Shown: one piece after another, positions 2,736 through 61,242 of the stretch
Layout: every line of letters begins with the position of its first letter
Position numbering within the stretch: the first letter of the stretch is position 1
From: Prorocentrum cordatum
Lineage: Eukaryota
Direction of reading: 5' to 3'
DNA: 64,000 bases
NCBI GenBank assembly: GCA_963575745.1
Contig: CAUYUJ010000159.1
Location: 186,001 to 250,000 of the forward strand
Notes under the pieces: model-generated
The model's input: the letters and a program-made list of their open reading frames with translations, nothing else
What the model was told of the DNA's origin: nothing
Databases searched by the model: none
Position numbers and translations under genes: made by a program

Positions 2736-4142
2736 CTAGAGAGAGATCTCAAGACAGCAGCCACATCCACCATCCCCCCGTTCCACCTCCCTCGCACCCC
2801 CCCCCACCCAATCGCAGAGCAAGGACAGGAGTGATGGGGGGGGCGGGAGGACGCCCCAGACAGCCCGCTTCCCGCGGTTGACACGTAGAGCGGGCCGATC
2901 GAGATGGTCATCATCGTCTGGTGGCCGGAACGAGTTCGGCGGGAAGTGGAACGGCGTTGCCTGAGCAGCATGTGCTCTGAACCAGGCACGTGCCACGGCA
3001 TCCCGAGCATTCCACCAATCAGCGCCAGGAGCGACGGCATGAGGTCGACGATGCACCCGAACAGCTTGCCCAGGTGCTCTGAGCCAGACGTGGGCCACGG
3101 CATCACGAGCACTCCACCCAGCAGCACCAGGAACAACGACGTGAGTAGAAGGGCCAGACTCGGCCGCCCCAGCCTCCTTCTGAAAGTCGACGTCGAGACG
3201 AAAGCGTACAGGCACAACAGGCACCGCTTGAAGACCAGCAGGCTCTCGATGAGGAAAGAGTTTCCCAGGATCTCGAGGGCCAGCGGGCTCTCGAAAACCA
3301 GCAGGCTCACGCAGATCAACAGGCCCTCGATGAGGAGGAACATCATGAAGACCAGCAGGCCCTCGATGAGCAGCAGGAACATCACGAAGACCAGCGGGAT
3401 CTCCACGAAAGTTGTATAGACCCACTTCAGGAAGATCCAAATGACCAGGAAGTTCGAAACGACACGGCTCAGGAAGGTCGTCAGCAGGAACAGCTTGAAG
3501 ATCATAAGGTTCTCGGCGAGCAGCGAGTTTTTCCGGCTCCAGACCAGCAGGCACTCGAAGACCAGCAGGCTCTCGATGACAAGCAGGCTCTCGAGGAGCA
3601 GGAACATCAGGAGCGTCACCATGATGTAAATCAGGAAGGTCGTCGTAGCGGCTCGCATCTGTGGCTGGCGGCGCCCAGCAACCAGGAGCGAGCTCTGCGT
3701 TCACATGAACAGGAAGTCGGGGCTGGAAGGGATCGGCCTCGGCGTTGAGCGGAAAGGCCATCATCTTCAGCGTCGACTCGAGGACAACGGCCCGAACAGC
3801 CGCAGGCGGCGGCGGCATCCCGCTCACGCATGGCGGCGGGGCGTGGCGGCACCAGCTGCCAGTCTCCAGGGCGTCAATGGCATCCTGGAGCTCCGCGTCG
3901 TCGAGCCCCACCAGGCGGGCCGCCGCGATCGCGGCGCCCAGCGTGGGGATGTGGCCGCCCAGGCGATCTCCAAGGCGCCAGTGGGCGTCGAGGGCGACAC
4001 GGAGGCCACGCAACCGGTAGGACATAGCGGCGGCCCTCGTCTGCCCGAGCTGCGCCCTCCGTTCGCGTCGAAGGCGCCGAGCCAGGGTCCGAGCACTCGC
4101 CGCAGCCCAGGCTTTGCCGCCAGCAGTGAGAGCACGAGACAT
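2736..4142 (-). CDS. SL-capped intronless 468-aa protein of unknown function with PAM2-like motif and REPAGL repeats (retrocopy or ORF1-like protein of a non-autonomous retroelement)
   Basis: True ATG at 4142, 66 nt downstream of a perfect DinoSL. Open for 1.4 kb. LNAEADPFQP lies at ~3749-3720, 18-bp REPAGL repeats at ~3230-3610, and an ARDAVA module is duplicated. Confidence 0.6.
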   Translation of the reverse strand: MSRALTAGGKAWAAASARTLARRLRRERRAQLGQTRAAAMSYRLRGLRVALDAHWRLGDRLGGHIPTLGAAIAAARLVGLDDAELQDAIDALETGSWCRHAPPPCVSGMPPPPAAVRAVVLESTLKMMAFPLNAEADPFQPRLPVHVNAELAPGCWAPPATDASRYDDLPDLHHGDAPDVPAPREPACHREPAGLRVPAGLEPEKLAARREPYDLQAVPADDLPEPCRFELPGHLDLPEVGLYNFRGDPAGLRDVPAAHRGPAGLHDVPPHRGPVDLREPAGFREPAGPRDPGKLFPHREPAGLQAVPVVPVRFRLDVDFQKEAGAAESGPSTHVVVPGAAGWSARDAVAHVWLRAPGQAVRVHRRPHAVAPGADWWNARDAVARAWFRAHAAQATPFHFPPNSFRPPDDDDHLDRPALRVNRGKRAVWGVLPPPPSLLSLLCDWVGGGAREVERGDGGCGCCLEISL

Positions 4143-4208
4143 TGCGGCCGCTTGCGCGCCTGCGCCTGGAGCAGGCGCGCTGGCGAGGGCCTCCCGAAGC
4201 GCGGCTCG

Positions 4209-4230
4209 CTTGAGCCAAAATGGCTACGGA
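4209..4230 (-). other. Full-length dinoflagellate spliced-leader sequence (retroposed)
   Basis: The reverse complement reads TCCGTAGCCATTTTGGCTCAAG, a 22/22 match to the DinoSL consensus. Confidence 0.95.
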
Positions 4231-48200: not shown

Positions 48201-49409
48201 CCTCTCCTCTTCTCCCCGGCGACAGTCGTTGATGCTTGAAGGCAGTGGGCAGGCATCGCCCGTTTACCCGGGCTGCCGTCCCTGGGGTGGGTATACGGCG
48301 CCCATGTTACACGGGCCAAATAAACAAATCGGGCGCGCCCTGAGGCACTCAACACACCATGCCCGCCGGGAGTAAACAGGTAGGGCGCGACTTCCGGGCA
48401 ACCAGGTAGAACCTGTACCTGAAGAGGCCAAGTTGCCCCGAGGTGCCCGCCGGGAGTAAACAAGTATAGGCTGTCCCCGTTTACCCCCTGCGTTTCGTTT
48501 GTGATTTGACGAGGGGGGATGGGGGCACACAGGTGCTTACTCTACCTGTAAAAGCAGCCGATCGTACCAGAGGACCGAACAACTGCTTGTCTACCTGTAG
48601 AAACAATGTGTGGTAAACAAGTACCCATCGGTCGGAAGAAGTAGGTAGAAACATGAAGTAGGAAGGGTTGAAAGTAGATTGTGTCTCCGCCCGCCTCCTC
48701 AGGAAGATGGAAAAGGTGAAGCCACTCGATCATTGAAGTAGGAGGGCGCTTATATTGGAGTTTGGAAACCCACAAATATCTACTTCCAACGACCGATGGG
48801 TACCTGTAAATTGGTTTCGTTTCCTCCCCTCGACCAGTTGTCGACGTGTAGACGCTGGCCGTTGTACCTGCCCCCCCCCCTGTACACCAGGCGGGTGCGA
48901 CCTTATAACAAGCATGGGGCGGGAAAACCGTCCATAGGGTGAAAACAAACCTACCTCGCTTTTGACCACCCTCGCTTCCAAGAGATACCAAACGATGCCA
49001 AATTGCAGCCTGTACTGGTCAGGCCGCTTGACGAGGAGGCGCGTGGTATGGCTTGGTTTTGCCTGGAAGCGAAAGCGGGGTAGGTAATTCACGCTCTGAG
49101 TCCAGGAGGATGCGCGGGTACCCGTGCCCATGTTTGATGGGCAGGCTTTCCACTACCACTACAAAGCATAGGAGTGGGGCAGGGGGTCCTCCTCCTCCTC
49201 CTCTTCCTTCCTCCTCTTCCTCCTCCTGTTCCCGTAGCCATTTTGGCTCAAGACTGTTTTCCAGGGAGGCTGACTGCCTCCAGGCTGCACGGATACCGCT
49301 AGTCCGCGGCTCGTTCTCAGTTGTTTGCAACCACGGCTAGGCTGTGCGCTGGCTCGTGGCCAAGAGTGATTCTGGTGAGCTCCTGGTGGAGCGCAGTCTT
49401 GAGTCTTCG

Positions 49410-50780
49410 ATGGCTTGGGAATACAATCCGTGGGTCAAGCAGACCGACGGTTGGCGCAATGGCGGCAAAAAGGGCGGTGGCAATGCCGGCGGCAAGGGCG
49501 GCAATACTCGTGCTGGTCGCCGTCGTGGGCGTGATGCCGATCGCCCCTCGTACAGCGTGTGCGCTTCCTGTGGCCACTGGGACTTTCACTACCACGGCAA
49601 TTGGGTGTGCAGCCGCTGTGGCGGTGACTACTTCGACGCTGGCGAGTACGGTGACTGCAAGGACCCGATGGGTGGCGACCTCGAGTCCTCAGGGCTGGCT
49701 GTGCACCTCGCGATGCTGGCGGATAAGTTCCCCGAGATGGCCCAGGATCTTCAAGCGGTGCGGGCAAAGGCTGAGGCTGCTGCCGTGCCTGCGGCTGCCG
49801 AGGCTCCGCCGCCGCCTGAGCCCGCCTCCCAGTCGGAGCTCGACAAGCGTGTTTCCGCAAAGCTCACGGAGCTATCCAAGTCGGTGGAGTCGGCTGCCCG
49901 CGCGGAGCGGATCGCGCAGGTGGCTGTCGAACAACGCTTGTCGACCGTTGTCAAGCACAAGGACGACCTGGCCAAGGCGGAGTCGGAACACGCCGAGGCC
50001 ACTCGCTACTGGCAGTCCATGGCGGCGGAGTTGCGTGACGCCATGGCTCAGAAGAACCTGTTCAACGCTGACCAGTACAAGCAGGATATCCGCCTTGAGG
50101 AGCAGCGCCTGGCCCGTGAGGCGGCCGACGCCGAGGCAGCCCGTCGCCGGGCCGCTGCTCCCGCTGTTCCTGGTGCTGTACCTGGTGGGGTGCCTGGTGG
50201 AGGCCCTCCAGGGGGCCCTGCTGCTGCCATGGGCGGCGCCGCCGCTACGGCCGCGGGGCCGCCTGCGGAGGCCGGCGCCCGCGATGGCGTTGGCCCCGCG
50301 GCGGAGGCGGGGGCCCCTCCCCTGCCCGGACTCACTGCTGCTGGCACCGTGGACTTTGCGTGGGTCGAGCAGAACCTGCACACGCTGGAGGAAGCCGACC
50401 TGGCGCGCTTCAACGGTAGGTCCGCCGTCGGCCCCGAGCAGTGGCAGGCCATGTGGCAGATGGCCAAACAGCAGCACGCCCCCGATCTGCAGATGGACGA
50501 CGGTAACTCGGATACTGCCTCTGCTGCTGGTGATGACCCTGAGTTTGTCGAGCTTCGTGACCTTCGCAAGCGGGCCGCTGATCACGGCCTCAATGCCGAC
50601 GAGTCTCGCAAGTACGGCGAGCTGGTCCAGCGCGCCGCGGACGCCCGCGCTAGTAAGCGCGCCCGCCGCGTGGTGGCCCAGCAATCGAGTAACTGTTTTG
50701 CCTCTTTCTGTCAGGCAGTGGCCGCCCAGCTTAATGCAGTCCCTATCGCTGCCGCGGCTGGAGGCCCGCAGCATTTTTAA
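49410..50780 (+). CDS. LINE ORF1 (456 aa): Gly/Arg-rich N-terminus, C2-C2 zinc ribbon, coiled coil
   Basis: First ATG after the SL. Contains CASCGHWDFHYHGNWVCSRCGG and long Ala/Glu/Lys helical stretches, and ends CAT TTT TAA. Confidence 0.8.
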   Translation: MAWEYNPWVKQTDGWRNGGKKGGGNAGGKGGNTRAGRRRGRDADRPSYSVCASCGHWDFHYHGNWVCSRCGGDYFDAGEYGDCKDPMGGDLESSGLAVHLAMLADKFPEMAQDLQAVRAKAEAAAVPAAAEAPPPPEPASQSELDKRVSAKLTELSKSVESAARAERIAQVAVEQRLSTVVKHKDDLAKAESEHAEATRYWQSMAAELRDAMAQKNLFNADQYKQDIRLEEQRLAREAADAEAARRRAAAPAVPGAVPGGVPGGGPPGGPAAAMGGAAATAAGPPAEAGARDGVGPAAEAGAPPLPGLTAAGTVDFAWVEQNLHTLEEADLARFNGRSAVGPEQWQAMWQMAKQQHAPDLQMDDGNSDTASAAGDDPEFVELRDLRKRAADHGLNADESRKYGELVQRAADARASKRARRVVAQQSSNCFASFCQAVAAQLNAVPIAAAAGGPQHF

Positions 50781-53700
50781 CCTTGTGCCCGCCGAGCGCC
50801 GTCGTGCGCGCTCGCGCGGTCAGCAGTTGAGCCTCCTCTTTTGCAACGTCACGTCGTGGTCGTCGCTCACCAAGGGGTTCGCTGCTACTCAGGTCTCTAA
50901 GGTTGATGCGTTTCTGATTGCTGAGCACCACGTTCGTCGAGCTAATGTTCAGCAAGCTAAGAAAGAAGCCCGTGCAATGGGATGGTCCCCGTTCTTCCAG
51001 CCTGCGGTTAATTCCCCTGGAGGAGGCACGCACGCAGGCGTTGCATTGCTGACCCAGAAGGGCCTGGCTTTCCAGAGGTTCCTGACCCAGGTCCCCGAGG
51101 TCATCCAGGTTGGCTCTGGCGTGTATTGGCTGTTTCTGGAGTTGAAGCTCAATGGCTTCTCCATGGGCATCGGTGTCTGTTACCTCGTTGCTTCGATCGG
51201 GATGGTTGGCGAAAATCTCGATAGGATGCGTGAAATATGTCAGTTTACCAGGTCCCTGTCTATTCCTTGGTTGCTCTTGGGCGATTTCAACAATTCCCCA
51301 GACCAGGTTGCTAGTTCTGGATGGTTCGAGTTGACTCGCTCTGTGCCAATTGTTCCTGATAATGTGGACTTTACTTGCAATGCCGGCGAGACGATGATTG
51401 ATTACCTTGTCTGCTCCCAGGACCTGGCCCAGGCAGTGAATGTGCAGGCTCTCTTGGACGCCCCGTTTAAGACTCACGCTTGCCTGTCTGCTACTGTGGA
51501 TGCTGAGGTTCTCCGTCTGGTCGTTGGGCGACGTTGTAAGTGTGCCTCCTTCCCACCAGCTTTTGGGCCTGATCACGTGTGGCTGCATTATGTGAACCAG
51601 GCCTTGCAGGATGACCTCGACCACCATATCCCTGTTGATGTTTCCTCGGCTCTCTTGGAACACACGCGTGAGCATCTCTCTGGGGACTTATCTCAAGCTT
51701 ACGCCTTGTGGTCAAGATCCGCCGAGTACGTGTATCTGTCTCGGGCTTGTGCTGCTGTCGACCCTGATCGTGTCTTGGGAAGGGGCCTGGGACTTCAGAG
51801 GTTTTCTGGATCGTTGAGGAGACATGGGAGGTACAAACAGAGCTTCTCTTGCCAGTACCTGTGCTTCTGGTCCCTGGTCCATACCCGTCTCTATGACTAT
51901 TGGAAGTGTCTCTGCAAGGCTGGCTCTTGGTGCCGGCATGCTGTTCAGCTTTGGTATCTTCTTGCCGGCTTGGCTGGCCAGCCGCTGCAGCACCTCGAGC
52001 CTTTGCATTCGGTCCATCAGGCGCATTGATGGGTCCAGGTGCTGGCCTACCCACCGACGACGCCTGACGACGTCAAGTGTTTGCTCGACAAGTCTGCCGA
52101 GGTATGTCAGGTTGCCTGGACTAAGGTTCGGGCTGCTAACGAGTCTGGGATTCGGGAATGGTTGAAAGCTTGTCTTCCTGGTGGGACCCCTAAGCTTCAT
52201 AGATGGCTTAAGGCTGATGATCGCGTTGTGGTCGAATATTTCAAAGGTTTTGAAGGGGTTGCGCAAACGCATGGTGATATGATGCACAATCGTGAAAAAT
52301 TTTGGGGCGAGTGGTGGACCCCCCCAAACAGACCCTCGACCTCCTCAACGCGTCCTTGACGGAGCTCCGTGCTTCTGCACAACTGGCGGTAATGGAATTT
52401 GAGGAAATGCAGGTTCGTGACCTCGTCCAGGCATGCCATTGTTTTTCGAGCTCCACGGCCCTGGGCGTGGATCAATGGTCCCCTCGCGAGTGGCTGTCTT
52501 TGCCGGGCCATGCTCTTGACGGGGTCGTGCAGATCTTTAACCGCGTGGAGAACGAGCTCATGTTCCCCACCCAGTGTCTCTTGAATCTGATGGCGATGCT
52601 CCCCAAGAGTGTGAAGGACGAGCGTGCTGTGTCCAAGTGCGCTACTCTATATCGCGTGTACTGTCGCATGCGCGGTGGTATGATTGATGAGTGGAACAAG
52701 GCACATACAGATTTTTTGGGATTGTGCAATTAAAGGTTCTTCTGCCCTCCAGAGCGCCCTACTGCGCGCTGTCTCCGATGAAGTTGCTGCCTCGCTTGGC
52801 TTTGAGTCCCTGGCCGCGCATTGGGACATTGAGAAGTTTTTTGATAGTGTCGTTGTCCCGATGCTGGTACAACTTGCGCTGAAGGCTGAATACCCATCCT
52901 GCCTGTTGTACCTCGGCCTCATTGTGCACACGTGCCCCCGCGTGCTCGAAGTCGAGGGCACCTTGTCGCAGGTGATTTCTACTGGCAGTTCTATTCTGGC
53001 AGGTTGCACGCAGTCTATGCCCTGGGTGAAGGCGTTGTTGCATGATGTGCTTGAGCGTGCGCATTATCGAGTTCCACATGTTCCTGTTAAGTCGTACGTT
53101 GACGATATCACGCAGTACGCGCACGGCACGGTTACGCACCTAGTGAAGGTCGCTCCTCAGGCTGTGTTCTCCTTCTTCCAGGACGTCAAGTCCATTGGTT
53201 GCAAGGTCTCGTCCAAGAGCGCTGTGGTTGTTTCCTCTGCTGCTTTGGCTAAGGCTGCCCTTTCAGAGTTCCGGAAGCTGGGGATCCCCCTGAAGGTTTC
53301 CGAGGCCATGAAGGATTTGGGGGTGATGACTACGGCTGGGAGGAGGAGGTGTACGTTCAAGGTCCGCATGAGACGGCGAGTTGCTTTCATGGGAGGCCGT
53401 AAGTTGCAGTACTTGGCCCGCTTGTGTGGCCGATCTCGAAAGTTGTTCAAACCGGGGGTTTTGAGCGTTGGCACTTGGAGTCATAGTGTTCTCGGTTTGC
53501 CGCCGTCCGAGGTTCAGGCTTTTCGGGCCTCTGCTGCAAAATGCTCTGGCTATTGGTCTTCAGGGGCTTGCACGTCTACCGTTCTGGCTCTCCGTCATCA
53601 GTATAGTGACGACCCTGCGTACAGGCTTAGGCGTGAGCAGCTCCAGGCGCTCCTCAGTGTTTGGCACGGCCTGTCTCAGGGTATGCGTAATGGAGTGTCT

Positions 53701-55434
53701 CGTACCTGGAGCAGGTTGCGGGGCGAGCTGCTCGCCATTCCTGCTAACCGGCGCTGGCGGACCGTCAAAGGCCCTATCGCTGCTGTGATCTGTACCCTCT
53801 TGGACTTAGGGTGGGCCCCAGATTCGCCCACTCGATGGGCTACCCCCACCATGATGCTTGACTCCGCGGCCCCCGACTTCCTCTTCCATCTCGACGCTTG
53901 TGTGAAGCAGACTGTTGCTCATATGACTTGGACGGGGGCTTCAAATCATCATTGTGGTGTGGGGTTGGAAGGTGGAGTTGATTTTACCGTGTTTCGTCGT
54001 ATACATGCGCAGTTGGTCAAGGATGGGGCCCAGCAAGATGCCGCTCTTCTCTGCTGCATTGTTACCAGTGGCTGCTGGCCCGAAGCCAGGCTTCGTCAGG
54101 CTGGCTATCTGTCTAGTGGTATCTGTCAGCGCTGTGGAGTAGCGCAGGAAACGATGATGCACAGGGTATGGCAGTGCAAGTGTAACGATGAGATTGACAC
54201 GAATGCACTTCACGATTCTACCCACCTTTGCAATGTTGCCCTGAGTGCTGCTAGTCATGAGAGTGCTTTCTGGACCCGTGGGTTACCGACTTTGGCTGCC
54301 GCTGTGAATCAGATCCCCCCGCCGACCTCGCAGACGTTCGGATGGGGTGTCCTGGCGCATGGGGTCGTCGTATCTGGAGGCACCTGGGGGCTGGACGGGT
54401 CTGGAGGCAAATGGGCTAAAGACTGGAGGCTTCGCCGATGTGGGTGGGCTATGGTTCGTCTGGATGCCAACAGTGTTCCTGGTAATTATCAGTTTGACGG
54501 GGTGATGTGTGGCACCCTCCCCACCATCGATCAGAGCAGCCCCAGAGCGGAGCTGTACGCATTCCTGATGCTGATCGTCTACACGACGGGCGACATCCTG
54601 GCGTACTCGGATTACCTCCCCTTGGTCCGTGCTCTCAGGCGCCCTCGGTCGTCTATAGCTCAGTCCTCGCCTATGCTCGACCTTTGGTGCCTTATCTGGG
54701 ATCGCCTGGGCAATCGCCCCGGTCATGTTGAGGTGCTCTGGACCAAATCGCATGCCACGGCTTCTTTGAGAGAGGCTTGGGGCCTTTCGGAGGCCGAGCA
54801 TTTTTTGAATTCGTGTGCTGACTATTTTGCTGGAGTGGCTGCTGCCAACGGAGAGGTGGATCCCGAATACGTCAGGCTGATTTCTGATGTGGATTTGCTG
54901 ACTTCCCAAGTTCTGTATAGGTTGCTCGATGTGAACCGGGAAGTCAGCATCACCTGCTCCCGAAATAAGGCCGATCGCGTTGGTCGGCAGCCTTCCCGTC
55001 CTCGGGCAGTGCCTACCGAGGCGACCCGTCGGCTGCGGCTCCTCGCCGCTGGCCATGCCCCTGTCAAGTCTAAAGGCCTGTTTCGGTGTCAGGTGTGCAA
55101 TCGTAAGTTCCTTGCCTTCCGTGGCAGGCTCTGTGACTTCAATCCTGGGAGGTGCGTTGGACCACCCCCAATGCGGGATGGCCCTGCTGCTGCGCCCGGC
55201 CACCCATCCTTCCCCCGAGCCCATTCGTCTCACAAGTTGAGTGTGCTCCGAGGGGTCTTGTATTGCACTGTTTGCGGTCGCTATTGTGTTGACACGGCTC
55301 AGCTCCTGGCGGAGCAATGTCCCCCCACTTTGGAGCCCCCTCGGCCGCCCTCTAAAGCGGGGCTGTCTGTCTTGTCGCGTCTCTCTCGAGGGCTGCCGCC
55401 GAAGAGCGGATCTTCCTTCCCTGCGAGAGGCTGA
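50734..55434 (+). pseudogene. LINE ORF2: AP endonuclease - reverse transcriptase - CCHC zinc finger - RNase H - C-terminal zinc motifs; one in-frame stop and two homopolymer frameshifts
   Basis: EN: FCNVT, IAEHH, LLGDFN, IDY, FKTH. RT: WDIEKFFD, AGC, YVDD (53095-53106), DLG. Zinc finger: CQRC..ETMMHRVWQC. RNase H: LDGSG, RAEL, YSDY, KSH, N..AD. Lesions: TGA at 52027-52029, C7 run 52319-52325, T6 run 52712-52717. Confidence 0.9.
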
Positions 55435-55684
55435 GACGGACCTGTCTGCCCGCCTCCTGACGGAGGACAACATGGGGAGCTGGACCCAAAACGGGCCCGC
55501 CGGCGGGCCCAGAATGGGCCCAGCCCCGCATGGCGCTGTGTGATCGGGTGGTGGCGTAGGTGGTACGGGCCCAATCATAAGGTTGCGCCACCCACCCTGC
55601 TGACAGAGGGTCCATGTCCATCAGGGAAGGCCCACCAGAGCAAGATCAAAAGATTCCTCCTCCTGTTCTTCCTCCTCCTCCTCC

Positions 55685-56211: not shown

Positions 56212-59200
56212 ATGCGTCTCATTTCTTGGAATCCGATGTCCTTCAAGATTATGACAAACTCCTGGAGATTTCTAGGGAGCTCGAACACATAGATGCCGTC
56301 CTCCTCTCTGGAACGCAGGCCAAGACCATGTCCTCCTACGAGACGCACTCGACAGCGGAATTTCTCATTGGCATCGCAGTAATAAGAACACGACAGGCAA
56401 CAAATCATGTGGCACCGAGATTTGGCTGAGCAGACGATGGTTTCGGAAGACCCACATAGTCAAGATCTGGCAGCCCCCACCCGCTCTCCGCGGCCGTGTA
56501 GGCGCTACGCGCGTGAAGAGCGCACTGTTCGACTTCACCTCCATCAAAGCAGACTTCCCTCCGAGATCGCAGCGCATCGCTACTGCCTCAAAGAACGAAG
56601 TCATCATCGACAAAATGCTCAGCTATCTGCACGACATCATCGCGAATTTGCCGAACCGTACTTGCGCATTCATCGGCACCGACCTGAACGACAGCCTCGC
56701 GCGCACCAGCTCGACAGAGGACGACGATGCCACCATAGGTGACCCCATGCATACGGACAGCAGCACTATGCGGGCGAAGCTTTCCATACGTTCTTGAAAG
56801 ACTACGCCCTGTGCGCGACGAACACGCACTACCCGTGCGGCCCTACTTATCACGGCCTACGAGGGCACTCGAGCTACATCGATTACCTGGTGATGCCGAT
56901 ACGCTATCTACCGCGAGTACGTCGCCATAACATCGCTTACCGCCTGACCAAACGACTCCGAGCATTTCCGTCTCAACGACTACTGGATCACATGATGCTG
57001 TACATCGATGTGGACTGCACCCTAACATACGACAAACCTCAGACAACGCCGCAGTGGGACTACACACGCATATTCTTGGCCTGGAAAGATGAACGATTCT
57101 CCGAATGGGCGAAGCAGCTACGCGACGACATTGAGTCTGACCTGTCTAACTACCTCAATGAGAACGGCTACCGTGATATGGCAGACTGGGCTGAAAGACG
57201 CACGATGGAGTCGGGATGGCAGCTATTGATATCTAAGATACGCACGCGAGCTCTAGAGTATTTTGAAGCAAAGAAGTCCACGACCGAGCTAGAATACCAG
57301 CAGCTAGCAGAGCAACGACGTCAAGCACTACATGCACGCACACAGGCTCGGCAGAACTTAACAGACGACCTAGAAGACACGCTTGCTCTGCACCGCTGCA
57401 GGGCAGCCTGCAAAAAACTTCGACGCCGACTACGTGACCTCCGAGACGAACAGCACTTTCGCGAACTACAGCAAGCTGATGAGGCAGGACTGGAAGCAGA
57501 AGTCTGGCGAGCTTGTCGACGCCTTGCAGGCAATGGAAAGGGCCCTGACAAACGCTGCTACTTTGATCTGCCCGACGCTCGCCCCTCTGTTCAAACATGG
57601 ACTGAAGATACGGCACTTCCTGGCGCGGAAGGAGGAATGGAAGCGGCACCGATTGATATCGAGCACTTCATCGACACCGCTGCGTCAAACGACGAGCGTT
57701 TCTGCCCTTCTGCACATCAGTGGAGACACGTCCAGTACGACTTCGACGCGATCAAACGCCAGCTACGGATGCATTGCAAACGCCGACAAGCTGCTCCCGA
57801 ATGGTCGCTACCTGCAGAGATCTGGTCTCTCTTGCTCGTCGATAGAAGTGAGGACCGCAAAAAAGACGGCAGCCATGAGTACGACCACGCGGTGATCTCC
57901 CCTGGCCCCCTCCTCGGCGATGCGATTCTTACACAACTTGCTGCGGTTCGTCAACACCAACGGCTCAATGCTTGGTGGAACCTTTCTCAGACCTATCAAG
58001 TAAGCAAGATGAACAATAAACCACGTACTCGAGGCACTCGATTACTACACGGATTATGCACGTTCGGAAAGACATGGGTTGCTTCAAGACAGTCTCTCGC
58101 GTCCACACCATTGCACGATACTGAGCACGGCTACGCGCGTGCACGTTCACGCTCAGCAGCGATCACAGTCGGCTTAGCACTGCAGTGGCGCCTCACCAAG
58201 CAGCAACGAAGCCACGTCACCACGAAGCACGACATGACTAACGCCTTCGCCCCGGTGAACCATTCCCACCTCGACGACGCCGTGGACAAGATATACCTCC
58301 CTGGAGACTGTGCGATCATGAAAGGCAGGCATCGTCGAGCAGCCTGTGTGATTAGCGACGGGATTGACACTCAGGGATACCAGAACACCGTAGGCTGCTT
58401 CATGGGAGATGACGATGCTGCGGTCAAGTCCCGCGCGGCCTTCACGCAGCCCACCACTGAATGGAATGATGCACTTACTACCGATACCAGCACATCGATG
58501 ATTGCGGGGTGCGAGTTCACTGGCACAAACGTCGACCTCAGCGTCCGCAGGTACGCCGACGACCTCACCAAGACCCACATGTGTCACGATGCGCAGATGG
58601 CGGCCTACAAAGTTCAACAATCCGACCAGATCCTGAATGACAAGGTGCGCTCCATCGGACTGCAGCAGAATGCGGCGAAAAAGGCTCTTCTGCCGACGTT
58701 TGTCGGCACTGGCGCTCACAGATACGCACGCGCCCTGCATCATCGCAAGATACCAGTTGACGGCGAAATTCATTCCTCGACCCTGTTCTTAGGCTCCATC
58801 ATGCAGGCTAACGGCCACAACCACGCCGAGGTCAGGGAACGGTGTATCGCTACGGCTCGCGGTTGGCGCAGTATGGGACGTTTCTGGAAGAATTGCCGAT
58901 ATTTGAGACGTCGGAAAATGGTTTTCAGAAGTCAGGTCTTATCGGCCGCTACCTCTGGACTTGAAGCACGTGTACTGACAAAGACACAACTCGATCATAT
59001 AGACGCCTGTGTAGCTCGTTGCGCCCGTGCCCTACTTCAAGGTACCGCATATATCGAGCAGTCCGCCGACGACGACGCCATCTTTGGCACCACCGAAGTT
59101 GTTCGCAATATCTCATCTTATGCGGTCTGGAAAAAATTGAAGATGGTACCGCCCTCCCTGGACATACAGATCGTGCGCATCAAGCGATGGCAACGCGTTG

Positions 59201-60000
59201 CACGAGAACCTGACCATCACGCTCAACTACTAGCCTGTGTTTTTGGCAAACTACTATGCGAGTCCACGACGACGTTGGACTTCCCCGGGGCCCCTGTACA
59301 CACAGCCTCTACATACAACGCTCGTGGCCCCCCAGATGGTAACGGCCCCACACATATGACCAACCCTTGGCGCAAGCAGTTCTTTGATGACATGAAGTTG
59401 CTGAATGTATTTGCAGACGGACGAGCATGCCTAGACGTCATTGGCGACGATCTGCTCGACATTTTTCGACCGACACCTGGTCGAGACGTGTTTATCAAGC
59501 TAACGATTGCACGTGTACGAAAGTGGTGGATTGCACAGCCCGCCCCACCACCCCGCAGTGCTCCAGATGCAACTGTCGCCTGGAGTAGCACCCACACGCG
59601 TGGCCTTCTATGCGAGGATGGAGCGTTATGCCTATTCACGGCCGAAACAAAACAAGCGCTCCGAGTACACCAAACGATGAGTGGGGAGGGGGGCGAGCAC
59701 GGACGAATATGCGAGCATGCGAGATTCACGATTACGAACCAATGCCCTAACTGCCGATCGACCTTCGCGAGCCGGCAGACTGCGATCAATCATCTTGCTG
59801 CTGCTTATCGTTCTGGGAGATGCCAAAAACACCGCTCTGTTTACAACTTCGAGGTGAACGATCCTCCGCAGCTGTTTTGCCCAAGTGACGTATGCGAGCA
59901 CACCTTCGCTACCCTCGGCGAGTTGCAAGCTCACATTGCGACAGAACACCTTCCCGAACCTCGCCCTCGTGTCGCGGATGAGCTCACTGCCCAACGCTGG
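56212..60000 (+). pseudogene. APE-RT-zinc finger polyprotein; endonuclease part frameshifted, RT part open (frame stays open to 61242)
   Basis: EN: MRLISWNP (ATG 56212), LSGTQ, NKSCG, GTDLN, PTY, YIDY, LDH. RT: HGY, HDMTNAF, MGD, YADD (58552-58563), FLG. Zinc fingers: CPNC...H and CPSDVC...H...H. The functional end is approximate. Confidence 0.85.
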
Positions 60001-60778
60001 AGAGCACGCAGGCGCAGCCGCGGCAGATGCGACACAGCCTGCTCACAAGTCCCGACGCCGCCAGCCCACCGGCCGTGGAAACCAACAGAATGGGTCGAAG
60101 TCCAAGATGGTGGACCTGCAGTCACTCGAACTGGAGGAGATGGAACCGAAGGATATTCAGCTCATGTTTCCCATTGTCATGAAGCTACTACTCAACGTTG
60201 CGATGAGGCAGCGCCAGACCGACGCCATACTGATCAAGACGTACCTCGTCTCACCTGGCACGAAAAGCGTCGTGGCGATCAGAGCTCGAGTTCGCGCATG
60301 GGTAAAAAGAGCCGAGGCGATACGAAGTACGACGACGGCAACGCATATCGATGCGGAGATGGCGAAGATCGGCGCGATCAGCACCGCAGCCTTCGCAGGC
60401 CTGCTCGAAGGTCTCCATCAGGAAGGCGCGTCCGTCGGCGGCCTCAACCAACAGAACCTGACAGCGCTGGGCGAGAAGCTGAAGACCATGGACATCAAGC
60501 AGATCGTCGAGCTCGCCCCGCTCGTGAAGGCCAGCAACACGCACGACGCCGCGCAGTGCAAGCTTCAGATCAGCCTCTACCCCAAGAACGACGTCGACCT
60601 CAGCGTGATCCACGAATCTCTCATCCAGACGGGGGCGATCTACAAGCCAGGGCAGGGTCCGATGGTGCACATGGAGAGGATCCTTCACACGAAGCTGACG
60701 CAGTTAATTCCAACGCCTTCAACTGGGATAGACATAGTTGTGCGCTATGGGACAATTGTATTCCGAAGAATACTGTGA
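59978..60778 (+). CDS. Accessory ORF (266 aa) downstream of and overlapping the RT frame, function unknown
   Basis: ATG at 59978 immediately after the last zinc finger. Globular, helical-looking sequence with G/C-ending codons, whereas the RT frame here reads as Arg-rich shadow. Confidence 0.7.
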   Translation: MSSLPNAGEHAGAAAADATQPAHKSRRRQPTGRGNQQNGSKSKMVDLQSLELEEMEPKDIQLMFPIVMKLLLNVAMRQRQTDAILIKTYLVSPGTKSVVAIRARVRAWVKRAEAIRSTTTATHIDAEMAKIGAISTAAFAGLLEGLHQEGASVGGLNQQNLTALGEKLKTMDIKQIVELAPLVKASNTHDAAQCKLQISLYPKNDVDLSVIHESLIQTGAIYKPGQGPMVHMERILHTKLTQLIPTPSTGIDIVVRYGTIVFRRIL

Positions 60779-61242
60779 CGACAGGCAGGGGGAGCCTTTC
60801 GCCTGCGTCTGGGCATGCGCAAACTACTACGCCAACTGTTCAGGGCATGGAGAGCCCACCACACGCATCTACGAATGCGCCTCCTTTGACGCCAGCAGTT
60901 CAGGGCATGGGGTGCCCACCGTCTGCATCACAGAGTGCGCCTACACCATCAGTTGTTCAGGGCCTGGAGAGCCCGCCCATTGCTTCACAGAGTGCGTCTA
61001 CTACAGTTGTGTATGGAGAGCCCACCTCCTGCATCACAGAGTGCGCCGACTTCTACGCCAGCAGTTCAGGGCATGGGAGTCCCACCTCATGCATCGAAGA
61101 GTGCACCCACCGCTACTGCAGTCGTTCAGGGCACGGACTACCCACCTATTGCACCTACGAGTGCGCCCTCAGAAGTGGTTCGGGGCATGGGGAGCCCACA
61201 TCGATCACCTACGAGGGTTGCCCCTTCGAGTACCCGCACTGA
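60747..61242 (+). CDS. Putative third ORF built of seven ~60-bp repeats encoding SGHGEPT.CI.ECA (one frameshift ~61010)
   Basis: ATG 60747 lies just upstream of the previous ORF's stop. The repeats are visible directly, and several differences between units are synonymous in this frame. Confidence 0.5.

What the first reader, a model, noticed from the sequence alone, without database searches (positions are those of the whole stretch)
50685..50790. ORF1/ORF2 junction carries two candidate expression signals: an internal splice acceptor and a TTT-TAA '+1 shifty stop'
Seen: inside GC-rich ORF1 there is an out-of-character gagTAACtgttttgcctctttctgtcAG (branch-like TAAC, pyrimidine tract, AG at 50713-50714). 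An ATG in the ORF2 frame follows 20 nt later (50734). ORF1 ends CAT TTT TAA and ORF2 is in the +1 frame (ATT TTT AAC). The next ORF2 Met lies past the endonuclease N and E motifs. Inference: ORF2 is made either from a subgenomic SL-trans-spliced mRNA, resolving a bicistronic LINE like an operon, or by +1 slippage of tRNA-Phe at a stop codon, as in known shifty-stop recoding.
Basis: partly seen in the sequence, partly recalled or inferred. Interest (0 to 1): 0.75.

Follow-up and report, generated by a model that had tools for sequence, protein, structure and literature searches.

The report
Dinoflagellate LINE with conserved +1 ORF junction
This is the boundary between the two genes of a jumping element (LINE) in a dinoflagellate genome, where the second gene sits one base out of frame at a site that looks built for ribosome slippage, and a second copy keeps the same layout, so it is a real design feature and not a sequencing or decay error.

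Summary
The sequence features are all present at the stated coordinates. They lie in a 6,422-bp non-LTR retrotransposon copy (49232-55653). It is flanked by an exact 15-bp target-site duplication and begins with 21 of the 22 nt of the dinoflagellate spliced leader (DinoSL). This copy is dead: ORF2 carries an in-frame TGA and two frameshifts.

The ORF1/ORF2 junction is nevertheless not a lesion. A second copy (proteins P0159 and P0161) keeps the ATG, the ORF1 stop position and the +1 offset. A third copy (a run X1 contig) keeps the offset despite a net +57-nt insertion.

T5-TAA itself is not conserved. Copy 2 reads CAG CTT TAG, which is still a slip-prone XUU-U-stop. ORF2-frame conservation starts at the first codon after the ORF1 stop. 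A strong hairpin follows 8 nt downstream.

- My best reading, at about 0.4, is +1 ribosomal slippage at the ORF1 stop on the full-length SL-capped mRNA.
- Termination-reinitiation at the conserved ATG (0.23) remains open.
- Leaky scanning into a +1 frame that is stop-free across all of ORF1 (0.12) also remains open.
- The internal SL acceptor has no positive support. The tract is Ser/Phe/Cys coding, TAAC is not kept, and the only SL sits at the 5' end. No RNA data were available.

The parts
49217..49231 (+). 5' target-site duplication TTCCTCCTCCTGTTC, inside a (CCT)n microsatellite
   Evidence: Exact 15-mer occurs twice in the window, here and at 55654-55668; 0 expected in 100 shuffles.
49232..49252 (+). 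DinoSL relic, 21 of the 22 nt (the 5' D base is missing), forming the first bases of the element
   Evidence: Exact match to CCGTAGCCATTTTGGCTCAAG. There are 2 matches in the window and 0 expected. The DinoSL sequence is as given in the PMC2606063 abstract and a PMC7245778 passage.
49253..49409 (+). 5' UTR, with no ATG in any frame
   Evidence: ATG list. 7 of the 10 indels seen among run X1 copies fall between 49254 and 49375.
49410..50780 (+). ORF1 (456 aa plus TAA). It has a Gly/Lys/Arg-rich N-terminus, a C-x2-C...C-x2-C motif, a coiled-coil-like stretch and an Ala/Pro/Gly-rich region. No detectable family.
   Evidence: Translation. Pfam found nothing at E<=0.01. The near-length homologue search found nothing. 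The Atlas gave no usable hit. The C-terminal 99 aa are 76% identical to P0161.
50690..50714 (+). Pyrimidine-rich tract ending in AG, the candidate acceptor; it encodes N-C-F-A-S-F-C-Q of ORF1
   Evidence: Copy 2 has T-S-S-F-S-S-F-C-Q here.
50734..50736 (+). ORF2-frame ATG, 44 nt upstream of the ORF1 stop, conserved in copy 2
   Evidence: P0159 starts MQSL at this same Met. These codons overlap the conserved ORF1 peptide LNAVP.
50775..50781 (+). Candidate +1 shift site: TTT TAA C, i.e. the last ORF1 codon, the stop and the 3' C
   Evidence: Copy 2 reads CTT TAG at the same position. TTT+CTT is 2.2% of ORF1 codons.
50789..50819 (+). GC-rich hairpin (11 bp, about -21 kcal/mol) starting 8 nt after the stop; it encodes PAERRRARSRG
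   Evidence: 120-nt fold z = -2.5, with 2 of 200 shuffles as stable. 12 of 2122 36-nt windows of the element fold as well or better.
50782..52029 (+). ORF2 part 1: basic leader and AP-endonuclease domain, ending at a private in-frame TGA (52027-29)
   Evidence: Pfam PF03372 E=0.0012, below the cut-off. 1399 relatives at E<=1e-3. TGA shown.
52326..52703 (+). ORF2 part 2, read in a different frame in this copy (RT N-terminal region). Frameshifts lie near 52320-52330 and near 52712.
   Evidence: Three-frame translation. BLASTP to P0011 residues 518-640, E=1e-17. An X1 contig lacks 1 nt at 52712.
52684..55434 (+). ORF2 part 3: RT, RNase H and a C-terminal Cys-rich region, back in the ORF2 frame
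   Evidence: BLASTP to P0011 residues 647-1708, E=5e-82. P0011 carries Pfam RVT_1 and RNase_H.
55435..55653 (+). 3' UTR ending ...CAAAAGA, with no long poly(A)
55654..55668 (+). 3' target-site duplication

Best explanation
The finding sits at the ORF1/ORF2 boundary of a dinoflagellate APE-type LINE.

Shown:
- The element (49232-55653) is a retrotransposed copy of a full-length, spliced-leader-capped mRNA. The SL relic lies directly after the target-site duplication, and ORF1's ATG is the first ATG.
- This particular copy is dead.
- The +1 offset, the position of the ORF1 stop and the upstream ATG are shared with a second copy whose proteins are 76-85% identical to the window's.

Inferred mechanism:
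- ORF2 is reached from the same bicistronic mRNA by +1 ribosomal slippage at the end of ORF1.
- With the stop codon (UAA or UAG, followed by C) in the A site, the P-site tRNA on UUU (window) or CUU (copy 2) re-pairs one base forward on UUU. Reading then continues AAC/AGC CUU GUG... into the endonuclease.
- The result is a rare ORF1-ORF2 fusion, much as Ty1 makes Gag-Pol.
- The GC hairpin 8 nt downstream may pause the ribosome.
For: Element anatomy:
- The 15-bp TSD occurs twice with 0 expected.
- The 21-nt DinoSL lies at the 5' end, 0 expected.
- ORF2 is colinear with the EN-RT-RNase H relative P0011.

The junction is not a lesion:
- P0159 starts at the same Met and aligns without gaps, 133/156 identical.
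- P0161 ends 11 residues after NAVP, as ORF1 does in the window.
- Of 74 overlap geometries tested, only +1 with 15 overlapping codons is consistent with both proteins. It fixes the junction as CAG CTT TAG.
- An X1 contig covers 50635-50782 and 50785-50909 without gaps, with 59 letters in place of 2. That is a net +57 nt, a multiple of 3.
- The complete indel table has no indel at the T run. It does contain the 1-nt deletion at 52712 that undoes the window's private frameshift.

Slip features:
- The last codon is TTT or CTT, a class making up 10/456 = 2.2% of ORF1 codons.
- The stop is followed by C.
- The hairpin ranks in the top 0.6% of 36-nt windows (12/2122), with z = -2.5.

Conservation boundary:
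- 7 of the first 16 ORF2-frame codons differ between copies, against 16 of the next 140 (Fisher p = 0.003).
- A run of 27 identical residues starts at nt 50782, the first codon after the stop.

Precedent, from passages of PMC5009743:
- Ty elements use +1 shifting near the 3' end of gag at CUU_AGG_C.
- A stop in the A site is a stronger shift stimulus than a slow sense codon.
- C 3' of the antizyme stop is conserved.
Against: - There is no RNA, ribosome or peptide evidence of any kind; no RNA run was listed.
- Only two copies could be compared at the junction. For copy 2 the nucleotides are inferred from two predicted proteins assumed to lie on one 1087-nt contig.
- T5-TAA is not conserved as such. 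2 of 7 positions differ, about what neutral divergence would give.
- The hairpin is made of CGN arginine codons in a peptide that is fully conserved in copy 2, and the relative P0054 has a similar basic leader. It may be a by-product of coding.
- The third copy's 57-nt insertion would move the hairpin far from the shift site.
- The conserved ATG and the stop-free +1 frame across ORF1 are unexplained coincidences under this model.
- In the passages I read, no +1 frameshift joining ORF1 to ORF2 is described for a non-LTR element.
Confidence: 0.4

Rival explanations
1. Termination-reinitiation or internal initiation. Ribosomes finishing ORF1 at 50780 stay on the mRNA and restart at the conserved AUG 50734, 44 nt upstream, or at a non-AUG codon just after the stop. 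ORF2p is then a separate protein, as proposed for other bicistronic LINEs.
For: - The ATG is conserved in copy 2.
- Full-length relatives (1500-1900 aa: P0011, P0016, P0045, P0054, P0080, P0087, P0092, P0095, P0114) begin 2-41 residues before the endonuclease domain, i.e. as separate ORFs.
- A passage of PMC3894237 states that SART1 links its ORFs by UAAUG and that a downstream RNA structure affects ORF2 initiation.
- The sharp start of conservation right after the stop also fits a restart just downstream of it.
Against: - The ATG has a pyrimidine at -3 and C at +4.
- It overlaps the conserved ORF1 peptide LNAVP, so its conservation may be owed to ORF1.
- The 16 ORF2-frame codons it would add are poorly conserved, 7 of 16 differing.
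- Backward movement of 44 nt is long for stop-start coupling (recalled, not checked).
- No ribosome-tethering motif was tested.
Confidence: 0.23
2. Leaky scanning into an overprinted frame. ORF1's AUG (49410, U at -3) is sometimes skipped, and ribosomes start at the next AUGs (49459, 49483, 49534). All three are in the ORF2 frame, which is open from 49303 through ORF1 into the endonuclease. ORF2p would then carry a roughly 425-aa Arg/Ser/Pro-rich N-terminal extension that overlaps all of ORF1.
For: Stop counts in the +1 frame of ORF1:
- 0 stops in the 456 codons, against 5.8 expected from codon shuffling (3 of 5000 shuffles gave 0).
- 4.6 expected from synonymous-codon permutation (P = 0.001).

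Codon choice and controls:
- All 6 Leu/Val codons that precede an A-starting codon end in C or T, although 35 ORF1 codons are xTG.
- The +1 frame of four control ORFs shows no strong depletion (P = 0.03-0.97).

ATG layout:
- AUGs 2-4 of the mRNA are all in this frame, and AUG 2 has G at -3 and +4.
Against: - The test was post hoc.
- The same null gives P<=0.03 in the +2 frame of 3 of 5 ORFs, so it is imperfectly calibrated.
- The +1 translation looks like off-frame sequence.
- ORF2-frame conservation begins only after the ORF1 stop.
- The frame could not be examined in any other copy.
- The slip-competent last codon and the hairpin become coincidences.
Confidence: 0.12
3. Internal SL trans-splicing. 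The AG at 50713-14 accepts a spliced leader, giving a monocistronic ORF2 mRNA whose first AUG is 50734.
For: - The element's RNA is demonstrably an SL substrate, since the SL relic sits at its 5' end.
- A pyrimidine tract followed by AG and then G is present, and the Q codon carrying the AG is kept at the protein level in copy 2.
- The ATG follows 20 nt later and is conserved.
Against: - The only SL sequence in the element is upstream of ORF1. There are 2 SL matches in the whole window, and the other belongs to an unrelated retrocopy.
- 6 similar tract+AG sites lie in ORF2.
- The tract encodes a conserved Ser/Phe/Cys-rich peptide, and the S-N codons that form TAAC are T-S in copy 2.
- No similarity links the tract to the real 5' end; 125 of 500 shuffles scored as well.
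- The 12 loose ends shown for the X1 and X3 contigs include none at 50715; 98 weaker ones were not shown.
- A review states that polycistronic expression appears rare in dinoflagellates (PMC11453091, passage).
Confidence: 0.07
4. Decay artefact. ORF1 and ORF2 were one frame in the active element, and the T run gained or lost a base in this dead copy or in sequencing.
For: This copy has three other lesions in ORF2: the TGA at 52027 and frameshifts near 52325 and 52712. Homopolymer runs are prone to indels.
Against: - Copy 2 and the X1 contig both keep the +1 offset, and the X1 indel table shows no indel at the T run.
- ORF1 ends with a stop at the same place in copy 2.
Confidence: 0.03

Closest known systems
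Ty1/Ty2/Ty4 Gag-Pol +1 frameshifting (CUU_AGG_C)
   Same: It is a retroelement in which the pol-like ORF is in the +1 frame. The shift occurs at the very end of the gag-like ORF, the P-site codon XUU re-pairs one base forward, and the product would be a low-abundance fusion. Copy 2's CUU matches the Ty1 P-site codon (PMC5009743 passages).
   Different: Ty elements are LTR elements. Their A-site codon is a rare sense codon, not a stop. Their frameshifting is experimentally proven, whereas nothing is proven here.
'Shifty stop' +1 sites (antizyme UCC_UGA_U/C; bacterial prfB, recalled; Euplotes AAA_UAA)
   Same: A stop codon in the A site acts as the pause, with C 3' of the stop. Antizyme also has a downstream structure (PMC5009743 passages).
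   Different: Those are cellular genes with regulatory logic (polyamines, RF2 level) or a genome-wide property of Euplotes. No dinoflagellate case appeared in my searches.
Bicistronic APE-type LINEs with coupled ORF2 translation (SART1 UAAUG; human L1 termination/reinitiation, the latter recalled)
   Same: It has two ORFs, APE endonuclease plus RT, and ORF2 is made from the full-length RNA. SART1 also has a downstream structure that affects ORF2 initiation (PMC3894237 passage).
   Different: Here the ORFs overlap by 47 nt in the +1 frame and the AUG is 44 nt upstream of the stop. ORF1 has no detectable homologue outside its own family.
DinoSL-tagged retrogenes of dinoflagellates
   Same: A relic spliced leader lies at the 5' end of a retroposed copy (PMC6050394 and PMC5585692 abstracts; PMC7245778 passage).
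   Different: Here the tagged RNA is the retrotransposon's own full-length mRNA, with an exact TSD. None of the passages I read describes that.
Tymovirus-type long overlapping ORFs read by leaky scanning (recalled, not checked in a paper)
   Same: A shorter ORF starts at a first, weak AUG. A long polymerase ORF starts a few dozen nt downstream in another frame and overlaps the first ORF completely.
   Different: That is a viral genome. For this element the overlap is only an inference from a stop-free frame in one copy.

Membership tests
APE-type non-LTR retrotransposon (LINE) | AP-endonuclease domain at the ORF2 N-terminus | tested here: met
   Pfam PF03372 gives E=0.0012, 19.1 bits, below the 24.5 cut-off. 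However, there are 1399 relatives at E<=1e-3, and relative P0054 passes the cut-off at 35.1 bits.
APE-type non-LTR retrotransposon (LINE) | Reverse transcriptase downstream of the endonuclease | tested here: met
   No direct Pfam hit in the window pieces. The pieces are colinear with P0011 over residues 518-1708 (E=1e-17 and 5e-82), and P0011 carries RVT_1 (at its cut-off) and RNase_H.
APE-type non-LTR retrotransposon (LINE) | Target-site duplication and absence of LTRs | tested here: met
   Exact 15-bp TSD. No long terminal direct repeat of the element was reported.
APE-type non-LTR retrotransposon (LINE) | A-rich or poly(A) 3' end | tested here: inconclusive
   The element ends ...CAAAAGA directly before the TSD. 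There is no long A run.
DinoSL-tagged retrocopy | DinoSL sequence at the 5' boundary of the inserted copy | tested here: met
   21 of 22 nt are exact, immediately after the TSD.
Programmed +1 ribosomal frameshift site | P-site codon whose tRNA can re-pair in the +1 frame | tested here: met
   UUU_U in the window and CUU_U in copy 2.
Programmed +1 ribosomal frameshift site | Slow-to-decode A site (stop or rare codon) | tested here: met
   UAA C in the window; UAG in copy 2 at the same position.
Programmed +1 ribosomal frameshift site | Conservation of site and frame arrangement among relatives | tested here: inconclusive
   The frame offset is kept in 2 of 2 further copies, and the site class in 1 of 1 copy where it could be read. 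That is too few copies.
Programmed +1 ribosomal frameshift site | Trans-frame protein or ribosome density in the new frame | not testable with these tools
   No RNA run was listed, and there are no proteomic data.
SL trans-splice acceptor resolving a polycistron | SL joined to the acceptor in RNA, or in retrocopies of that RNA | not testable with these tools
   No RNA holder was listed, no genome is held, and there is no SL match at 50715 in the window.
SL trans-splice acceptor resolving a polycistron | Acceptor signals conserved beyond what coding requires | tested here: not met
   The TAAC codons S-N are T-S in copy 2, and the rest of the tract follows a conserved S/F/C peptide. This was judged at the protein level only.
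Termination-reinitiation | Restart codon close to the stop, conserved | tested here: inconclusive
   The ATG 44 nt upstream is conserved in copy 2, but it overlaps a conserved ORF1 peptide.
Termination-reinitiation | Upstream ribosome-tethering motif complementary to 18S rRNA | not tested
   The organism's 18S rRNA was not at hand.

The most novel reading that the evidence does not exclude
ORF1 is entirely overprinted on the ORF2 reading frame. The +1 frame is kept free of stops through all 456 ORF1 codons by synonymous codon choice. Ribosomes that skip the weak first AUG therefore start at AUG 49459 and translate one continuous protein of about 2000 aa, made of an Arg/Ser/Pro-rich extension followed by EN-RT-RNase H. 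More loosely, the open frame makes ORF2 reachable from any upstream entry point: a slip, a cryptic SL acceptor or a truncated RNA. No LINE with such a layout appeared in what I read.
Probability: 0.12. Interest if true: 0.8.

Novelty: new variant of a known kind. Interest (0 to 1): 0.6.

Why it matters
How non-LTR retrotransposons translate ORF2 is an open question even for human L1. In the passages I read, no +1 frameshift joining ORF1 to ORF2 is described for a non-LTR element. Almost nothing is known about translational recoding in dinoflagellates, whose gene expression is thought to be controlled mainly after transcription.

This locus offers a concrete and short test object:
- a 7-nt site,
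- a conserved ATG,
- a hairpin,
- a stop-free overlapping frame.

It also shows directly that a dinoflagellate LINE uses an SL-capped mRNA as both messenger and transposition template. That is relevant to how these elements create the many SL-tagged retrogenes of dinoflagellate genomes.

Tried and rejected
Searches that found nothing:
- The whole genome is not held, so no genome-wide census of copies was possible.
- ORF1 gave no homologue at near length, no Pfam family, no Atlas hit, and no match among the 150 endonuclease hits.
- The search for related loci found nothing with the endonuclease protein in metagenome, genome or viral contigs. It also found nothing with alignment A3.
- Sequencing runs: no RNA holder was listed. 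Only X1 (DNA?, share 0.12) held part of the element; X2 laid nothing, and X3 laid only short low-complexity matches.
- The X1 listing of other letters was truncated (40 of 349 shown). I therefore could not read the third copy's bases at the tract, the ATG or the T run, and read laying is capped at one call.
- Rfam gave nothing at gathering level and only two sub-threshold chance hits near the junction.
- The scan's earlier findings gave nothing.

Ideas tested and dropped:
- The internal tract is not a relic of the SL/5' UTR, despite a shared ACTGTTTT. The local alignment scored 17, and 125 of 500 shuffles did as well.
- No other copy of the element lies in the window; blastn and tblastn found only the 21-nt SL match.
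- N-terminal leaders of distant relatives gave no clear pattern.
- The TSD search for the second SL retrocopy was inconclusive.

Other points:
- Slip of mine: one search used 49411 instead of 49410 as the ORF1 start. It was corrected, and one search's numbers are not used.
- Cis-splicing to the AG at 50714 was considered but not tested.
- Paper PMC3465430 is not held. I saw only its title, in the reference list of PMC11453091.

Full report
**Observation.**
- TAAC lies at 50690-93.
- A pyrimidine-rich tract ends in AG at 50713-14.
- An ATG in the other frame lies at 50734-36.
- ORF1 ends CAT TTT TAA at 50772-80, and ORF2 is one base forward.
- The next ORF2-frame Met lies beyond the CNVTSW and AEHH endonuclease motifs.

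**What the locus is.** The junction belongs to a non-LTR retrotransposon copy spanning 49232-55653.
- It is bounded by an exact 15-bp direct repeat, TTCCTCCTCCTGTTC, at 49217-31 and 55654-68. These are the only two matches in the window, with none expected. The repeat lies inside a (CCT)n microsatellite.
- The first 21 bases of the insert are an exact match to the dinoflagellate spliced leader, with 2 matches in the window and none expected. The leader sequence is as given in the abstract of PMC2606063 and in a passage of PMC7245778. Only its first base is missing.
- The host is therefore a dinoflagellate, and the inserted RNA was a full-length mRNA that had already been SL trans-spliced.
- The 5' UTR (49253-49409) has no ATG. 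ORF1 runs from 49410 to 50780, 456 aa.
- ORF2 is colinear with a 1720-aa relative, P0011, which carries Pfam Exo_endo_phos (sub-threshold), RVT_1 and RNase_H.

**This copy is dead.** ORF2 has an in-frame TGA at 52027-29, a frameshift near 52320-52330 and another near 52712.

**ORF1.** It has no recognisable family:
- no Pfam hit,
- no near-length homologue,
- no Atlas hit,
- no match among the 150 best endonuclease relatives.

Its make-up is what a LINE ORF1 protein usually looks like. It has a basic Gly-rich N-terminus, a four-Cys motif, a coiled-coil-like stretch and a low-complexity region. That comparison is inference.

**Is the junction a lesion? No.** Three lines of evidence say so.

First, the protein collection holds two predicted proteins, each from a single contig of 1087 nt.
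- P0159 (169 aa) aligns without gaps to the window's ORF2 frame, 133/156 identical, and starts at the very same Met, MQSL.
- P0161 (110 aa) matches the ORF1 C-terminus, 75/99 identical. It ends exactly 11 residues after the shared NAVP, as the window's ORF1 does.

Second, I asked which overlap geometries allow one nucleotide string to encode both protein ends.
- Of 74 geometries tested (two shifts, 3 to 39 overlapping codons), only one works: +1 with 15 ORF1 codons before the stop. This is identical to the window.
- That geometry fixes the junction of copy 2 as CAG CTT TAG in the ORF1 frame, which reads AGC TTT AGC in the ORF2 frame.

Third, a contig of run X1, about 15% diverged, provides a third copy.
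- It covers 50635-50782 and 50785-50909 without gaps and has 59 letters where the window has 2. That is a net +57, a multiple of three.
- The indel table of that call carries no 'more not shown' note. It lists 10 indels among the 180 contigs laid: 7 in the 5' UTR region, a compensating pair at 53354/53357, and a 1-nt deletion at 52712.
- The 52712 deletion is exactly what undoes the window's private frameshift. There is none at the T run.

So the internal frameshift is private to this copy, while the ORF1/ORF2 offset is a family trait.

**The internal spliced-leader acceptor.** I found no positive evidence for it.
- No RNA run was listed, so the direct test could not be made.
- The tract is the most T-rich 24-mer of ORF1. 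However, six comparable tract+AG sites lie in ORF2.
- The tract encodes S-N-C-F-A-S-F-C-Q, and copy 2 has T-S-S-F-S-S-F-C-Q. A Ser/Phe/Cys-rich peptide is kept, but the S-N codons that make the branch-like TAAC are not.
- The shared ACTGTTTT with the true 5' end is chance.
- The only SL in the element sits upstream of ORF1.
- A 2024 review states that polycistronic expression appears rare in dinoflagellates (PMC11453091, passage).

The idea is not refuted. It rests only on an AG after a pyrimidine-rich coding stretch.

**The +1 shifty stop.** Literal T5-TAA is not conserved, because copy 2 has T3 and TAG. What is conserved is the class of site.
- The last sense codon is UUU in one copy and CUU in the other. 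In both, the P-site tRNA can re-pair on UUU one base forward.
- A stop follows at the same position, and C follows the stop in the window.
- TTT plus CTT make up 10 of 456 ORF1 codons, 2.2%.
- CUU is the P-site codon of the Ty1 shift site. The same review notes that a stop in the A site is a strong stimulus and that C after the antizyme stop is conserved (PMC5009743, passages).
- Eight nucleotides after the stop begins an 11-bp GC hairpin (50789-50819). It is among the 12 most stable of 2122 36-nt windows of the element. The 120-nt fold has z = -2.5.
- The hairpin is built from CGN arginine codons of a conserved basic peptide, so it may be a coding by-product.

The most telling comparison is the conservation profile between the two copies in the ORF2 frame.
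- 7 of the first 16 codons differ, against 16 of the next 140 (Fisher p = 0.003).
- The longest identical run, 27 residues, starts at nt 50782, the first codon after the ORF1 stop.
- The four conserved residues at the ATG (MQSL) coincide with the conserved ORF1 peptide LNAVP. The ATG's conservation may therefore be owed to ORF1.

This pattern is what one expects if the ORF2 frame is translated only from the stop onwards.

**An unexpected extra.** The ORF2 frame is open from 49303 to the private TGA at 52027, that is, through the whole of ORF1.
- ORF1 has 0 stops in that frame against 5.8 expected from codon shuffling; 3 of 5000 shuffles reached 0.
- Against synonymous-codon permutation the expectation is 4.6, P = 0.001.
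- All six Leu/Val codons that precede an A-starting codon end in C or T, although 35 ORF1 codons are xTG.
- Four control ORFs show no strong +1 depletion (P = 0.03 to 0.97). The same null does give P<=0.03 in the +2 frame of three of five ORFs, so it is not perfectly calibrated.
- The second, third and fourth AUGs of the mRNA (49459, 49483, 49534) are all in this frame, and the first AUG has a pyrimidine at -3.

This suggests leaky scanning into a long overlapping frame as a further candidate, and I cannot exclude it.

**Weighing.** Each translational model leaves one coincidence unexplained.
- Slippage leaves the stop-free frame unexplained.
- Leaky scanning leaves the slip-competent codon, the fixed stop and the conservation boundary unexplained.
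- Reinitiation leaves the slip-competent codon unexplained, and needs a 44-nt backward step.

Programmed frameshifting is the commonest way retroelements reach pol, and the conservation boundary points to the stop. I therefore put the odds as follows:

| Model | Probability |
|---|---|
| +1 slippage at the ORF1 stop | about 0.4 |
| Termination-reinitiation or nearby internal initiation | 0.23 |
| Leaky scanning into the overlapping frame | 0.12 |
| Internal SL acceptor | 0.07 |
| Decay artefact | 0.03 |
| Mechanisms not considered | the remainder |

All mechanisms are inferred. What is shown is the anatomy and the conservation of the layout in the few copies I could reach.

**Comparison with the known.**
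- The element is a member of the APE-type LINEs: endonuclease, RT, RNase H, TSD and no LTR.
- It works like a DinoSL-tagged retrocopy, except that the tagged RNA is the retrotransposon itself. In my paper searches and the passages I read from PMC7245778, PMC11453091 and PMC12014239, I did not see this described. I read no supplements, and I cannot say it is not in print.
- The candidate shift site works like Ty1 or antizyme sites. Membership in 'programmed +1 frameshift sites' cannot be granted without a trans-frame product.

**Limits.**
- Only two or three copies were compared.
- Copy 2's nucleotides are inferred from predicted proteins.
- The third copy's bases at the site were not shown.
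- There were no RNA data and no genome.
- The closest protein fragments carry, in one source, the label of a green alga (Pyramimonas sp. CCMP1952, EukProt). That sits oddly with a dinoflagellate leader, and I did not resolve it.

Noticed in passing
window 4209-4229 (-) and ORF 4223..2736 (-): A second exact DinoSL relic, here with its 5' T (22 nt), heads an unrelated 495-aa ORF. Like the LINE, it abuts a long (CCT)n run on its 5' side. This may reflect a target preference of the endonuclease for this microsatellite. The TSD search was inconclusive.
   Followed up: partly
window 49000-49230: In run X1 this bin has a summed contig depth of 5186, against 0-35 for the rest of the stretch. Loose ends lie at 49008 and 49099. 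A very high-copy short repeat, or the microsatellite, lies just upstream of the insertion.
   Followed up: no
window 49303-52029 (+1 frame relative to ORF1): The ORF2 reading frame is free of stops through all of ORF1, apparently through synonymous codon choice (P about 0.001). AUGs 2-4 of the mRNA are in this frame.
   Followed up: partly
proteins P0148 (residues ~30-40) and P0152 (~225-236), distant relatives: Two single-ORF relatives of about 2400 aa carry V/I-G-E-A-A-N-P-G-P near the N-terminus. This resembles the 2A 'ribosome skipping' motif reported in other APE-type LINEs (PMC3708506 abstract). Sequences were seen.
   Followed up: no
proteins P0004, P0006, P0007, P0115, P0160: The closest endonuclease fragments (44-67% identity) are labelled Pyramimonas sp. 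CCMP1952, a green alga, in EukProt, although the window carries dinoflagellate spliced leaders. This may be contamination or mislabelling in that data set.
   Followed up: no
window 56743-61242 (+): A 1499-aa open frame lies right after the element, with only sub-threshold C2H2 zinc-finger hits and an internal 60/166-nt repeat at 60787-61170.
   Followed up: no
contigs behind P0011 (5887 nt) and P0054 (6005 nt): Distant full-length relatives of 1720-1744 aa sit on contigs too short to hold an ORF1 of the size seen here. Some members of this LINE group therefore seem to be ORF2-only.
   Followed up: no
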